DNA of 64,000 bases from NCBI RefSeq assembly GCF_009914755.1, contig NC_060932.1; one strand, written 5' to 3'. Positions 11,346 through 15,847 of this stretch are shown here, one piece after another (the first letter of the stretch is position 1; every line of letters begins with the position of its first letter). This DNA comes from the human T2T-CHM13v2.0 reference genome, Homo sapiens. The position numbers and the translations under genes are program-made. The notes under the pieces are model-generated. The model did not search any database. It was given only the letters and a program-made list of their open reading frames with translations, and was not told the DNA's origin.

Positions 11346-11413
11346 CATAGAGATTCTGATTCTGAAAGTCAGTTTTCCCAGGGCCTAAAAATCTTGTTTT
11401 AAAAAACAGACCG

Positions 11414-11520
11414 GCTGACTCTCTTTTCGGACTCAGCCCGCCTGCACCCAGGTGAAATAAACAGCCATGTTGCTCACACAAAGCCTGTTTGGTGGTCTCT
11501 TCGCACGGACGCACATGAAA
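11414..11520 (+). repeat. HERV-H 5' LTR remnant (R-U5 only)
   Basis: GCTGACTCTCTTTTCGGACTCAGCCCGCC...CATGAAA; first 63 bp match 15751-15813 with one mismatch. Confidence 0.93.
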
Positions 11521-11522
11521 TT

Positions 11523-11540
11523 TGGTGCCGTGACTCGGAT
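11523..11540 (+). promoter_or_regulatory. Primer binding site for tRNA-His
   Basis: TGGTGCCGTGACTCGGAT, 2 nt after the LTR end. Confidence 0.95.
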
Positions 11541-11951
11541 CGGGGGACCTCCCTTGGGAGATCAATCCCCCGTCCTCCTGCTCTTTGCTCCGTGAGAAAG
11601 ATCCACATACGACCTCAGGTCCTCAGACCGACCAGCCCAAGAAACATCTCACCAATTTCAAATCCGGTAAGCGGCCTCTACTCTTCTCCAACCTCCCTCA
11701 CTATCCCTCAACCTCTTTCTCCTTTCAATCTTGGCGCCACACTTCAATCTCTCCCTTCTCTTAATTTCAATTCCTTTCATTTTCTGGTAGAGACAAAAGA
11801 GACATGTTTTATCCGTGAACCCAAAACTCCGGCACCGGTCATGGACTGGGAAGGCAGCCTTCCCTTGGTGTTTAATCATTGCAGGGACGCCTCTCTGATG
11901 ATACACTCACGTTTCAAGGGTGTCAGACCACGCAGGGACGCCTGCCTTGGT

Positions 11952-12183
11952 CCTTCACCCTTAGCGGCAAGTCCCGCTTTCCTGGGGCAGGGGCAAGTAC
12001 CCCTCAACCCCTTCTCCTTTACCCTTAGCGGTAAGTCCCGCTTTCCTGGGGCAGGGGCAAGTACCCCTCAACCCCTTCTTCACCCTGAGTGGCAAGTCCC
12101 GCTTTCCTGGGGCAGGGGCAAGTACCCCTCAACCCCTTCTCCTTCACCCTTAGCAGCAAGTCCCACTTTCCTAGGGGGCAAGA
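11952..12183 (+). repeat. Tandem ~64-bp repeat (3 full copies plus a partial) in the HERV-H leader
   Basis: CCTTCACCCTTAGCGGCAAGTCCCGCTTTCCTGGGGCAGGGGCAAGTACCCCTCAACCCCTTCT units starting near 11952, 12016, 12077 and 12141. Confidence 0.9.
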
Positions 12184-12361
12184 ACCCCCCAATCGCTTAT
12201 TTCCGCACCCCAACCTCTTATCTCTGCGCCCCAATCCCTTATTTCCGCACCCTGACCTCTTATTTCCATGCCCCAACCCCTTCTCTGCTTTTCTGGAGGG
12301 CAAGAACCCCCCACCCCTTCTCCGTGTCTCTACTCTTTTCTCTGGGCTTGCCTCCTTCACG

Positions 12362-13512
12362 ATGGGTAAGCTTCCACCTTCCATTCCTCCTTCTTCTCCC
12401 TTAGCCTGTGTTCTCAAAAACTTAAAACCTCTTCAACTCACACCTGACCTAAAACCTAAGTGCCTTATTTTCTTCTGCAATGCCGCTTGACTCCAATACA
12501 AGCTCGACAGTAGTTCCAAATAGCCGGAAAACGGCACTTTCCATTTTTCCATCCTACAAGATCTAAATAATTCTTGTCGTAAAATGGGCAAATGGTCTGA
12601 GTTGCCTGAAGTCCAGGCATTCCTTTACACATCAGTCCCTTCCTAGTCTCTGTGCCCAGTGCAACTCGTCCCAAATCTTTCTTCTTTCCCTCCCGCCTGT
12701 CCCCTCAGTCCCAACCCCAAGCGTCACTGAGTCTTTCTAATCTTCCCTTTCTACAGACCCATCTGACCTCTCCCCTCCCTGCCAGCCCAAGCTAGGTCCC
12801 AATTCTTCCTCAGCCTCTGCTCCTGCACCCTGCAATCTTTTTATCGCCTCCCCTCCTCACACCTGGTCCGGCTTACAGTTTCGTTCCATGACTAGCCCTC
12901 CCCCACCTGCCCAGCAATTTACTCTTAAAAAGGTGGCTGGAGCCAAAGGCATAGTCAAGGTTAATGCTCCTTTTTCTTTATCCCAAATCAGATAGCGTTT
13001 AGGCTCTTTTTCATCAAATATAACCCTGAGACGCTTTACAGACCTAGACCCTAAAAGGTCAAAAGGCCATCTTATTCTCAATATACATTTTATTACCCAA
13101 TCTGCTCCCCACATTAAATAAAACTCCAAAAATTAAATTCCGGCCCTCAAACCCCACAACAGGATTTAATTAACCTCGCCTTCAAGGTGTACAATAATAG
13201 AAAAAGTTGCAATTCCTTGCCTCCACTGTGAGACAAACCCCAGCCACATCTCCAGCACATAAGAACTTCCAAACACCTGAACCGCAGCAGCCAGGTGTTC
13301 CTCCAGAACCTCCTCCCCCAGGAGCTTGCTACAAGTGCCAGAAATCTGACCACCAGGCCAAGGAATGCCTGCAGCCCAGGATTCCTCCTAAGCCGTGTCC
13401 CATCTGTGCGGGACCCCACTGGAAACTGGACTGTTCAACTCACCTGGCAGCCACTCCCAGAGCCCCTGGAACTCTGGCCCAAGGCTCTCTGACTGACTCC
13501 TTCTCGGCTTAG
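12362..13512 (+). pseudogene. gag: HERV-H gag remnant
   Basis: MGKLPPSIPPSSPLACVLKNL at 12362; two zinc knuckles CYKCQKSDHQAKEC and CPICAGPHWKLDC in ORF 13207-13512; stops and frameshifts in between. Confidence 0.85.
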
Positions 13513-14751
13513 CGGCTGAAGATTGATGCTGCCCGATCGCCTCGGAAGCCCCGTAGACCATCACGGACGCCGAGCTTCCGGTAACTCTCACAGTGGAAGG
13601 TAAGCCCGTCCCCTTCTTAATCAATACGGAGGCTACCCACTCCACATTACCTTCTTTTCAAGGGCCTGTTTCCCTTGCCTCCATAACTGTTGTGGGTATT
13701 GACAGCCAGGCTTCTAAACCTCTTAAAACTCCCCCCATTCTGGTGCCAACTTGGACAACACTCTTGTATGCACTCTTTTTTAGTTATCCCCACCTGCCCA
13801 GTTCCCTTATTAGGCCAAGATATTTTAACCAAATTATCTGCTTCCCTGACTATTCCTGGAGTACAGCCACATCTCATTGCCGCCCTTCTCCCCAACCCAA
13901 AGCCTCCTTTGCGTCTTCCTCTCATATCCCCCCACCTTAACCCACAAATATGGGACATCTCTACTCCTTCCCTGGCAACTGATCACATGCCCATTACCAT
14001 CCCATTAAAACCTAATCACCCTTAACCCGCTCAACGCCAATATCCCATCCCACAGCATGCTTTAAAAGGATTAAAGCCTGTTATCACTGGCCTGCTACAG
14101 CATGGGCTTCTAAAACCTATAAACTCTCCTTACAATTCCCCCATTTTACCTGTCCAAAAACCGGATAAGTCTTACAGATTAGTTCAGGATCTGCGTCTTA
14201 TCAACCAAATTGTTTTGCCTATCCACCCTGTGGTGCCCAACCCGTACACTCTTTTGTCCTCAATACGTTCCTCCACAACTCACTATTCTGTTCTCCATCT
14301 TAAAGATGCTTTTTTCACTATTCCCCTGCACCCCTTGTCCCAGCCTCTCTTTGCTTTCACTTAGACTGACCCTGACACCCATTAGGCTCAGCAAATTACC
14401 AAGGCTGTACTGCTGTAAAGCTTCACAGACAGCCCCCATTATTTCAATCAAGCCCAAATTTCTTCCTCATCTGTTACCTATCTCGGCATAATTCTCATAA
14501 AAACACACGTGCCTTCCCTGCCAATTGTGTCCGACTGATCTCTCAAACCCCAGCACCTTCTACAAAACAACAACTCTTTTCCTTCCTAGGCATGGTTAGC
14601 GTGGTCGGAATTCTTACACAAGAGCCAGGACCACACCCTGTAGCTTTTCTGTCCAAACAACTTGACCTTACTGTTTTAGCCTAGCCCTCATGTCTGCGTG
14701 CAGCGGCTGCTGCTGCTTTAATACTTTCAGAGGCCCTCAAAATCACAAACT
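13513..14751 (+). pseudogene. pol: HERV-H pro-pol remnant (protease and partial RT; no integrase visible)
   Basis: Degenerate protease motif VPFLINTEATHS, PVPLLGQDIL; RT segments LPVQKPDKSYRLVQDLRLINQ and YSVLHLKDAFF; multiple stops. Confidence 0.85.
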
Positions 14752-15192
14752 TTATCAGTCCTCCAGGCCCAAGTTGACTCTTTAGCTGCAGTTGTCCTCC
14801 AAAACCGCCGAGGCCTTGACTTACTTACTGCTGAAAAAGGAGGACTCTGCATATTCTTAAATGAGGAGTGTTGTTTTTACCTAAATCAGTCTGGCCTGGT
14901 GTATGACAACATAAAAAAACTCAAGGATAGAGCCCAAAAACTTGCCAACCAAGCAAGTAATTACGCTGAACCACCTTGGGCACTCTCTAATTGGATGTCC
15001 TGGGTCCTCCCAATTCTTAGTCCTTTAATACCCATTTTTCTCCTCTTTTTATTCTGACCTTGTATCTTCCATTTAGCTTCTCAATTCATTCAAAACCGTC
15101 TCCAGGCCATCACCAATCATTCTATACGACAAATGTTTCTTCTAACATCCCCACAATATCACCCCTTACCACAAGACCTCCCTTCAGCTTAA
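14752..15192 (+). pseudogene. env: HERV-H env remnant (TM subunit)
   Basis: LQNRRGLDLLTAEKGGLCIFLNEECCFY immunosuppressive domain and CX6CC from 14797; in-frame TGA at 15055-15057. Confidence 0.9.
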
Positions 15193-15354
15193 TCTTTCCC
15201 ACTTTAGGTTCCCACGCCGCCCCTAATCCCACTTGAAGCAGCCCTGAGAAACATCGCCCATTCTCTCTCCATATCACCCCCCAAAAATTTTCGCCACCCC
15301 TACACTTCAACACTATTTTGTTTTATTTGTCTTATTAATATAAGAAGGCAGGAA

Positions 15355-15813
15355 TGTCAGGCCTCTGAGCCCAGGCCAGGCCATCGCATCCCCTGTGACT
15401 TGCACGTATACATCCAGATGGCCTGAAGTAACTGAAGATCCACAAAAGAAGTAAAAACAGCCTTAACTGATGACATTCCACCATTGTGATTTGTTCCTGC
15501 TCCACCCTAACTGATCAATGTACTTTGTAATCTCCCCCACCCTTAAGAAGGTACTTTGTAGTCTCCCCCACCCTTAAGAAGGTACTTTGTAGTCTCCCCC
15601 ACCCTTAAGAAGGTTCTTTGTAATTCTCCCCACCCTTGAGAATGTACTTTGTGAGATCCACCCCTGCCCACCAGAGAAAAACCCCCTTTGACTGTAATTT
15701 TCCATTACCTTCCCAAATCCTATAAAATGGCTCCACCCCTATCTCCCTTCGCTGACTCTCTTTTTGGACTCAGCCCGCCTGCACCCAGGTGAAATAAACA
15801 GCCATGTTGCTCA
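15355..15813 (+). repeat. HERV-H 3' LTR (U3-R only), LTR7Y/type Ia-like
   Basis: PPT AAGAAGGCAGGAA at 15342-15354, then TGTCAGGCCTCTGAGCCC; 31-bp tandem repeats at 15520-15655; TATAAAA at 15721; AATAAA at 15793; subfamily from recall. Confidence 0.88.
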
Positions 15814-15847
15814 ACAACAACAACAAAAAAAACAGATGAGGTAATTT

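What the first reader, a model, noticed from the sequence alone, without database searches (positions are those of the whole stretch)
11401..15836. HERV-H copy integrated as an L1-retroposed RNA rather than as a provirus
Seen: the 5' end starts at the R region (11414), which in the 3' LTR lies 30 bp after TATAAAA (15721 to 15751), so U3 is missing. The 3' LTR stops at CA 15 nt after AATAAA (U5 missing) and is followed by a degenerate tail ACAACAACAACAAAAAAAA. AAAAAACAGA flanks both ends (11401-11410, 15827-15836) at a TTTT|AAAA site. Known: retroviral integrase yields two full LTRs and short (~5 bp) TSDs, whereas R-U5...U3-R-polyA with a longer TSD at TT/AAAA is the signature of L1 target-primed reverse transcription, best documented for HERV-W. 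Inference: a full-length, unspliced HERV-H transcript (splice donor GT at 11667 unused) was mobilised in trans by L1, implying co-expression in germline or early embryo.
Basis: partly seen in the sequence, partly recalled or inferred. Interest (0 to 1): 0.85.

Follow-up and report, generated by a model that had tools for sequence, protein, structure and literature searches.

The report
HERV-H RNA copy inserted by LINE-1
This 4.4-kb stretch is a copy of a full-length HERV-H retroviral transcript that the LINE-1 machinery pasted into the genome, and it is one of at least 19 such copies, although reviews name HERV-W as the only human endogenous retrovirus moved this way.

Summary
The element (11414-15813) starts at the first base of R, 30 bp after the TATA box as seen in its own 3' LTR. 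It has R-U5, a tRNA-His primer site, broken gag/pro/pol/env remnants and U3-R. It ends 15 nt after AATAAA, followed by a decayed A-rich tail. AAAAAACAGA flanks both ends at a TTTT|AAAA site.

The window's own target-site duplication is weak evidence, because only CAGA is non-A.

The stronger evidence is the class. Pattern scans of this genome found 51 loci where the LTR7-type R end runs straight into poly(A); I inspected 32:
- 13 have both transcript ends and duplications of 10-17 bp.
- 1 is an R-only copy.
- 5 are 5'-truncated with duplications.
- 1 of the 13 lacks a GT..AG intron.

A closely related true provirus on contig 14 has complete LTRs and a 5-bp duplication.

No paper in the held library reports HERV-H processed pseudogenes. 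A 2017 review abstract calls HERV-W the sole LINE-1-mobilised group. Pavlicek 2002 and Jern 2005 could not be read. No primate empty site could be checked.

The parts
11397..11400 (+). TTTT just before the duplication; with the following A's it gives the TTTT|AAAA target
   Evidence: matches the L1 endonuclease preference (recalled knowledge). T at position -1 of the duplication in 12 of 15 copies whose 5' flanks I read by eye
11401..11410 (+). 5' copy of the target-site duplication AAAAAACAGA
   Evidence: identical to 15827-15836. Weak on its own
11411..11413 (+). three extra bases CCG between duplication and R; the last G is the likely cap-derived G
   Evidence: A G not explained by the duplication precedes R in 7 of 10 copies found through their 3' ends. 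Cap origin is inferred
11414..11476 (+). 5' R region (63 nt), beginning at the transcription start
   Evidence: same first base in 13 other retrocopies
11477..11520 (+). U5 (44 nt), ending ...CATGAAA as in the contig-14 provirus LTR
11523..11540 (+). primer-binding site TGGTGCCGTGACTCGGAT, complementary to the 3' end of tRNA-His
   Evidence: The reverse complement without CCA ends tRNA-His(GTG) genes of this genome
11541..15354 (+). internal region. Leader with unused splice donor (GT 11667-68) and tandem repeats 11953-12291. Gag zinc knuckle in 13204-13512. Protease end in 13690-14025. RT start in 14029-14364. Env TM end in 14725-15057. A second unused donor (GT 13600-01) and acceptor (AG 15206-07). 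All frames are broken and most of pol and env is missing
   Evidence: collinear with the contig-14 provirus
15355..15750 (+). U3 of the 3' LTR, starting TGTCAGG. About five 31-bp tandem units at 15486-15671. TATAAAA at 15721-27 followed by a GC box
15751..15813 (+). 3' R region with AATAAA at 15793-98, ending at the CA cleavage site
15814..15826 (+). decayed poly(A) tail ACAACAACAACAA; up to 6 further A's are shared with the duplication
15827..15836 (+). 3' copy of the target-site duplication AAAAAACAGA

Best explanation
Window 11414-15813 is a processed pseudogene (retrocopy) of a full-length, unspliced HERV-H genomic transcript.

Proposed mechanism:
1. A deleted HERV-H provirus of the same build as the one now at contig 14:25.444-25.449 Mb was transcribed from its 5' LTR start site and polyadenylated in the R of its 3' LTR.
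2. LINE-1 ORF2p nicked the bottom strand at a TTTT/AAAA site 2.2 kb beyond the 3' end of RUNX1T1.
3. It primed reverse transcription on the poly(A) tail and copied the RNA to its capped 5' end.
4. Second-strand cleavage 10 bp away produced the AAAAAACAGA duplication.

Shown here: the anatomy, the identity of the ends with the transcript ends, and the recurrence of the build. Inferred: the enzymes involved, the germline or early-embryo setting, and the age. The age is roughly 5-20 million years, from 2.4% private substitutions and recalled primate mutation rates.

Lacking a 5' U3, the copy has no promoter for its own body.
For: 1. Ends. The copy starts at R and ends at the poly(A) site. There is no U3 at the 5' end and no U5 at the 3' end.

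2. HERV-H identity.
- The primer site matches tRNA-His.
- Pfam finds zf-CCHC, RVP, RVT_1 and TLV_coat remnants in 4 of 12 frames scanned.
- The copy is 97.2% identical (ungapped) to the contig-5 copy and collinear with a contig-14 provirus.

3. Contrast. The contig-14 provirus has complete LTRs (462 of 468 positions identical) and a 5-bp duplication, GAGCC.

4. Recurrence.
- The R-end word followed by poly(A) occurs at 13 distinct places, against 0 for the reversed control.
- A 33-mer with up to 3 mismatches occurs at 50 places, against 0 for the control. Together these give 51 distinct loci.
- Of the 32 I inspected: 13 have both transcript ends plus duplications of 10-17 bp, 1 is an R-only copy with a 13-bp duplication, and 5 are 5'-truncated with duplications of 9-17 bp.

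5. RNA intermediate. The contig-22 copy lacks exactly the stretch that in the window runs from AAG|GTAAG (13600) to ...TTTAG| (15207).

6. Target site. The duplications start with A runs, and T precedes them in 12 of 15.
Against: - The window's own duplication is low in complexity. 576 of 4000 A-run-matched control pairs reached its score.
- The tail is short and degenerate, 13 nt and not pure A.
- Three unexplained bases (CCG) sit at the 5' junction.
- No orthologous empty site was examined.
- L1 involvement rests on hallmarks only.
- Among the inspected loci, 5 of 32 gave no duplication or an ambiguous one, and for 8 of 32 the 5' end lay outside the DNA I could fetch.
- The source provirus was not identified. 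The contig-14 provirus carries two R changes in both of its LTRs that the window and contig-5 copies lack.
Confidence: 0.93

Rival explanations
1. An ordinary integrase-made provirus that later lost the 5' U3 and the 3' U5 through two separate deletions.
For: HERV-H copies often carry deletions. One locus (contig 1:187.117 Mb) does have an internal U3 deletion ending exactly at the R start.
Against: - Both breakpoints would have to fall exactly on the transcript ends.
- An A-rich tail replaces U5.
- A 10-bp repeat at TTTT|AAAA flanks the copy, not a 5-bp repeat outside complete LTRs.
- Thirteen other loci share the same first base, and all inspected loci have poly(A) after R.
Confidence: 0.01
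2. Reverse transcription and insertion by something other than L1 endonuclease-dependent TPRT. Examples are a retroviral reverse transcriptase copying the RNA, or endonuclease-independent L1 insertion at a DNA break.
For: No enzyme was tested here. The window's duplication is short and A-rich.
Against: - Retroviral cDNA synthesis regenerates complete LTRs and does not copy the poly(A) tail (established knowledge).
- Break-repair insertions usually lack duplications and the TT/AAAA site (recalled).
- Across the class, the duplications are 9-17 bp, start with A runs and follow T in 12 of 15.
Confidence: 0.03
3. A DNA-level duplication of another retrocopy, for example the contig-5 copy, rather than an independent retroposition.
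For: The window and contig-5 copies are 97.2% identical and share their internal structure.
Against: The flanks, duplications and tails differ. The contig-5 copy lies inside sequence I recognise as L1, with TATTCTT-type flanks and about 30 A's. The window has AAAAAACAGA. No homology extends beyond R on either side.
Confidence: 0.01

Closest known systems
HERV-W (HERV17/LTR17) processed pseudogenes made by LINE-1 (Pavlicek et al. 2002, not readable here; features as quoted in Grandi et al. 2016, PMC5016936, passages seen)
   Same: 5' LTR reduced to R-U5 and 3' LTR reduced to U3-R, a poly(A) tail, L1-type insertion features, and full-length as well as truncated copies.
   Different: - A different retroviral group: tRNA-His primer site, LTR7-type LTR of about 500 bp with a 44-nt U5, HERV-H internal sequence.
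- Far fewer copies relative to the family (51 candidate loci).
- Not found described in the held literature.
Canonical HERV-H provirus, e.g. the one at contig 14:25444100-25449200 (L067)
   Same: Same internal build and order. 3-way comparison over 4244 ungapped columns: 100 private changes in the window, 16 in the provirus.
   Different: The provirus has U3-R-U5 on both sides and a 5-bp duplication, GAGCC. The window copy has neither.
Processed pseudogenes of cellular mRNAs and other L1 passengers (Alu, SVA)
   Same: Poly(A) tail, variable duplications of 7-20 bp at TT/AAAA, 5' truncation, an occasional 5' inversion and an extra 5' G (recalled features; seen here).
   Different: The template is a retroviral genomic RNA, so the copy mimics a provirus and repeat annotation is likely to file it as one.
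Spliced HERV-H copies in genomic DNA (Goodchild, Freeman and Mager 1995, Virology; recalled, not read)
   Same: Genomic HERV-H copies that derive from processed RNA. The contig-22 copy found here also lacks an intron.
   Different: As I recall, that work argued for retrovirus-like retrotransposition. Whether its copies had poly(A) tails and long duplications I could not check.

Membership tests
L1-mediated processed pseudogene (retrocopy) | Collinear with the mature RNA from transcription start to cleavage/poly(A) site | tested here: met
   Starts 30 bp after TATA and ends 15 nt after AATAAA. Collinear with the R-to-R span of a related provirus.
L1-mediated processed pseudogene (retrocopy) | Poly(A) tail directly after the cleavage site | tested here: met
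   ACAACAACAACAA plus an A run; decayed. Sister copies carry 8 to about 35 A's.
L1-mediated processed pseudogene (retrocopy) | Target-site duplication of about 7-20 bp | tested here: met
   AAAAAACAGA, 10 of 10, but low in complexity: 576 of 4000 A-run-matched controls score as high.
L1-mediated processed pseudogene (retrocopy) | Insertion at the L1 endonuclease motif TT/AAAA | tested here: met
   TTTT|AAAAAA at 11397-11406. The consensus itself is recalled.
L1-mediated processed pseudogene (retrocopy) | Orthologous empty site with a single copy of the duplicated bases | not testable with these tools
   No primate genomes are held.
HERV-H | Primer-binding site complementary to tRNA-His | tested here: met
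   11523-11540. Its complement forms the 3' end of tRNA-His(GTG) genes in 3 of 3 loci scanned.
HERV-H | Sequence similarity to HERV-H internal region and LTR7-type LTRs | tested here: met
   The 287-nt 5' end matches 2042 first-look candidates; the 40 scored are 94-100% identical. The U3 matches 3009 candidates; the 40 scored are 82-100% identical. Names come from the primer site and my knowledge, because no Dfam or Repbase is held.
HERV-H | Assignment to an LTR7 subfamily (LTR7, 7B, 7C, 7Y) | not testable with these tools
   No Dfam or Repbase models are held. Two promoter-proximal types were seen among the copies.
Integrase-made provirus | Two complete U3-R-U5 LTRs | tested here: not met
   The 5' end lacks U3 and the 3' end lacks U5.
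Integrase-made provirus | 4-6 bp duplication directly outside TG...CA LTR ends | tested here: not met
   Absent here. Present (GAGCC) at the related contig-14 provirus.

The most novel reading that the evidence does not exclude
HERV-H is a second human endogenous retrovirus group that LINE-1 has mobilised repeatedly, and this has not been described in print.

- This genome holds about 50 loci where an LTR7-type R end runs into poly(A).
- At least 19 of them carry target-site duplications.
- They include copies of unspliced RNA, of spliced RNA, and of a 63-nt R-only RNA.
- At least one copy looks only a few million years old.

Together they form a dated fossil set of cDNA copies. These copies map, to the base, the start site, splice sites and poly(A) site that HERV-H used in the germline or early embryo.
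Probability: 0.4. Interest if true: 0.6.

Novelty: new member of a known kind. Interest (0 to 1): 0.5.

Why it matters
- Census and dating. Studies of HERV-H that count these copies as proviruses would misjudge integration numbers and LTR-based ages. One large HERV classification says it did not separate processed pseudogenes from proviruses (PMC4724089, passages).
- Expression. The copies lack a 5' promoter, so expression assigned to them needs another explanation.
- The HERV-W claim. The copies contradict the statement that HERV-W is the only HERV group moved by LINE-1 (PMC5537654, abstract).
- Transcript map. The shared first base, the extra G and the shared cleavage site give an in-genome readout of the LTR7 start and poly(A) sites.
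- Co-expression over time. The spread from decayed to pure tails suggests that HERV-H RNA and active L1 met in heritable cells over a long period.

Tried and rejected
- Papers. Pavlicek 2002 (PMC155283), Jern 2005 (PMC1091717) and Magiorkinis 2012 (PMC3358877) are not held. The cap on papers stopped one more look-up.
- Literature searches for HERV-H processed pseudogenes found no report. The phrase search found 0 papers. Only passages of the listed papers were read.
- Fetching. I then took short stretches of 19 of the 38.
- A screen for G plus the R start is not specific. Of 60 hits, 12 form six pairs about 5-8 kb apart, which are probably proviruses with G in both LTRs. It was used only to pair 5' ends with known 3' ends.
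- I suspected that the CAGCCTTG variant of the R end belonged to HERV-W. I rejected this because a contig-11 locus with that variant has the LTR7-type TATA and GC box and HERV-H internal sequence.
- I considered the contig-14 provirus as the source. I rejected it as the direct source because both of its LTRs carry two R changes that the retrocopies lack.
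Full report
**1. What is in the window**

The sequence reads ...CTTGTTTT | AAAAAACAGA (11401-11410) | CCG | GCTGACTCTC....

From 11414 on, a 63-nt stretch (11414-11476) recurs at 15751-15813 with 62 of 63 identities.
- At the 3' copy it is preceded by a U3. The U3 begins TGTCAGG at 15355 and holds about five 31-bp tandem units (15486-15671), TATAAAA at 15721-27 and a GC-rich box.
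- At the 5' copy it is preceded by unrelated DNA. A blastn of the 3' U3-R against the 5' region matches only R.
- After the 5' R come 44 nt of U5, then TT, then TGGTGCCGTGACTCGGAT (11523-11540).
- After the 3' R, which ends with CA 15 nt past AATAAA (15793-98), come ACAACAACAACAA and then AAAAAACAGA (15827-36).

**2. It is HERV-H**

- The complement of the primer site, without CCA, is the 3' end of tRNA-His(GTG) genes in this genome. The pattern gave 15 hits, and ARAGORN called tRNA-His ending at the match in 3 of 3 loci scanned.
- The first 287 nt match 2042 first-look candidates in the genome. The 40 that were scored are 94-100% identical.
- Pfam matched 4 of the 12 stop-to-stop frames I scanned: a Gag zinc knuckle (in 13204-13512), the end of a retroviral protease (13690-14025), the first part of reverse transcriptase (14029-14364) and the C-terminal part of a gamma-type envelope (14725-15057, E = 1.9e-34). 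No other curated-threshold match was found (one sub-threshold MauE hit aside).
- All frames are broken, and most of pol and env is absent. This is the usual deleted HERV-H build as I know it.

**3. The template was an unspliced genomic RNA**

The closest complete relative I found is a provirus at contig 14:25444100-25449200 (L067).
- It has complete LTRs with 462 of 468 identical positions and a 5-bp duplication, GAGCC. It sits inside what looks like an Alu.
- The window element aligns with it from the R start of the 5' LTR to the R end of the 3' LTR. Indels are at most 59 nt and lie mostly in tandem-repeat regions.
- The donor at 11667 (AAATCCG|GTAAGC) is therefore unused. So are a second donor (AAG|GTAAG, GT at 13600-01) and an acceptor (TTTAG|, AG at 15206-07).

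**4. Strength of the window's own insertion signature**

The duplication is A6 plus CAGA.
- Random pairs of window segments reach its alignment score in 6 of 3000 trials.
- Pairs chosen to contain A runs reach it in 576 of 4000 trials.

Taken alone the duplication is weak. The tail is short and decayed, and three bases (CCG) are unexplained. The case rests on the exact coincidence of both ends with the transcript ends, and on the class described next.

**5. The copy is one of a class**

*Scans*
- The R-end word CAGCCATGTTGCTCA followed within 14 nt by eight A's gave 48 matches at 13 distinct places. The reversed control gave 0.
- A 33-mer (R end plus ten A's) with up to 3 mismatches gave 50 matches, against 0 for the control. 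Twelve of these were among the 13.
- This makes 51 distinct loci. I inspected 32 of them: all 13, and 19 of the 38 new ones.

*Results for the 32 loci*

| Class | Number |
|---|---|
| Both transcript ends, with duplications of 10-17 bp | 13 |
| 63-nt R-only copy | 1 |
| 5'-truncated, with duplications of 9-17 bp | 5 |
| 5' boundary seen, but no duplication or an A-rich ambiguous one | 5 |
| 5' end outside the DNA I could fetch | 8 |

*The 13 copies with both ends*
- They are the window and contigs 5:12.43, 2:199.74, 6:81.69, 8:89.87, 8:116.95, 11:81.06, 16:68.77, 22:28.21, 10:110.46, 16:76.43, 5:122.99 and 12:114.00 Mb.
- For the last four I read only the two ends.
- All 13 start at the same G of GCTGACTC.
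- The nine whose interior I read have the tRNA-His primer site about 110 nt in, and no 5' U3.

*The other copies*
- The R-only copy is at contig 14:33.49 Mb. It reads: duplication AAAACTCTGTTCT, then G, then R, then poly(A).
- The five truncated copies are at contigs 2:153.99, 12:78.82, 6:137.95, 14:17.40 and 4:145.68 Mb. The last also has a 47-nt inverted piece at its 5' edge.

*Shared features*
- The duplications begin with A runs and are preceded by T in 12 of the 15 copies I examined by eye.
- Among the 10 copies with complete 5' ends that were found through their 3' ends, a G not accounted for by the duplication sits before R in 7. It is unclear in 1 and absent in 2.
- An extra 5' G is a known mark of cap copying in L1 retrocopies (recalled).
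- Some proviruses also have G at that place. A screen for G plus the R start gave 60 hits, 12 of them in six pairs about 5-8 kb apart.

**6. Direct sign of a processed RNA intermediate**

The contig-22:28.21 Mb copy (2816 nt) joins ...CACAGTGGAAG to GTTCCCACGCC... In the window these two points are separated by a stretch that begins GTAAG and ends TTTAG. That copy therefore derives from a spliced HERV-H RNA.

**7. Relationships and age**

A three-way comparison covered 4244 ungapped columns.

| Copy | Private changes | Share |
|---|---|---|
| Window | 100 | 2.36% |
| Contig-5 retrocopy | 19 | 0.45% |
| Contig-14 provirus | 16 | 0.38% |

- The contig-5 copy has a tail of about 30 A's and is close to the provirus.
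- The provirus carries two R changes in both of its LTRs that the two retrocopies lack. It is therefore a sibling rather than the direct source.
- With recalled neutral rates of 1.1-2.2e-9 per site per year, the window copy would be roughly 5-20 million years old and the contig-5 copy 2-4 million years old. These figures are inferences.

**8. Two LTR types and an R-end variant**

- Two promoter-proximal types occur among the copies. One has TATAAAACGG followed by a GC box. The other reads ATAAGAACTAATGATAATCC.
- The second type also precedes a normal HERV-H leader with a tRNA-His primer site in a provirus at contig 8:105.41 Mb. Both types therefore belong to HERV-H.
- The R-end variant CAGCCTTG occurs with HERV-H internal sequence and the first promoter type at contig 11:29.84 Mb. 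I therefore count these loci as HERV-H and not HERV-W.
- Subfamily names could not be assigned, because no Dfam or Repbase is held.

**9. Literature**

*What I saw*
- Passages of Grandi 2016 (PMC5016936) give the HERV-W pseudogene criteria after Pavlicek 2002.
- Passages of Thomas 2018 (PMC6298018) exclude L1-made copies only for HERV-W.
- Passages of Sperber 2007 (PMC1976444) mention an untested pseudogene module.
- Passages of the 1,019-genome study (PMC12350158) mention HERVH only for LTR recombination.

*Searches*

Nine searches found no report of HERV-H processed pseudogenes.

*Limits*
- Pavlicek 2002, Jern 2005 and Magiorkinis 2012 are not held.
- Costas 2002, Belshaw 2005 and Goodchild 1995 were not looked up.
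- Old scans are not searchable.
- No supplement was opened.

I cannot say that the class is unpublished.

**10. Context**

- The copy lies on the + strand, 2.2 kb beyond the 3' end of RUNX1T1. That gene is on the - strand and ends at 18060 in the hub's gene table. The copy is outside any annotated exon.
- Its body has no promoter.
- Its 3' U3-R keeps the TATA box, the start site and AATAAA, but it has lost the U5 that normally follows the cleavage site.
- Whether this allows read-through toward RUNX1T1 in antisense is untested speculation.

**11. Verdict**

- The element is an L1-made retrocopy of HERV-H genomic RNA, a new member of a kind known from HERV-W.
- Interest is moderate. The mechanism is expected for any abundant polyadenylated RNA, but the class seems to be overlooked, and it has practical consequences for HERV-H annotation.

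Noticed in passing
L011 = contig 5:12426000-12434000 (element at about 12427136-12431394): A second full-length HERV-H retrocopy, 97.2% identical to the window copy, with a pure tail of about 30 A's, lying inside sequence I recognise as L1. It has only 0.45% private change against the contig-14 provirus, so it may be only a few million years old and could be polymorphic.
   Followed up: partly
L049 = contig 14:33487000-33496900, minus strand (copy near 33487254): A retrocopy of only the 63-nt R region. It reads: 13-bp duplication AAAACTCTGTTCT, extra G, R, long A-rich tail. The template was an RNA that started and was polyadenylated within one LTR.
   Followed up: partly
L052 = contig 22:28196600-28206599 (element at about 28203623-28206438): A 2816-nt retrocopy with both transcript ends. 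It lacks exactly a GT..AG-bounded stretch (window equivalents 13600-15207), so it is a copy of a spliced HERV-H RNA.
   Followed up: partly
L007 = contig 1:187115656-187118946, minus strand: An HERV-H 5' LTR in which about 30 nt of the U3 start (TGTCAGG...) are joined directly to the first base of R. The rest of U3 is missing. The breakpoint at the transcription start is unexplained.
   Followed up: no
L065 = contig 4:145682840-145683770: A 5'-truncated retrocopy with a 16-bp duplication and a 47-nt inverted HERV-H piece at its 5' edge (80.9% identical), as expected from L1 twin priming.
   Followed up: no
L067 = contig 14:25444100-25449200, minus strand: A true HERV-H provirus closest to the window copy. 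Its LTRs differ at 6 of 468 positions and it has a 5-bp duplication, GAGCC. It is inserted in what looks like an Alu. The low LTR divergence suggests a young integration.
   Followed up: partly
L051 = contig 16:68766850-68776800, minus strand: This retrocopy (5963 nt) has many more copies of the roughly 61-64-nt leader repeat that the window has at 11953-12176.
   Followed up: no
window 15845-15990: A T-rich run followed by Alu-like sequence in antisense orientation begins about 10 nt after the 3' duplication. The order of the two insertions was not worked out.
   Followed up: no
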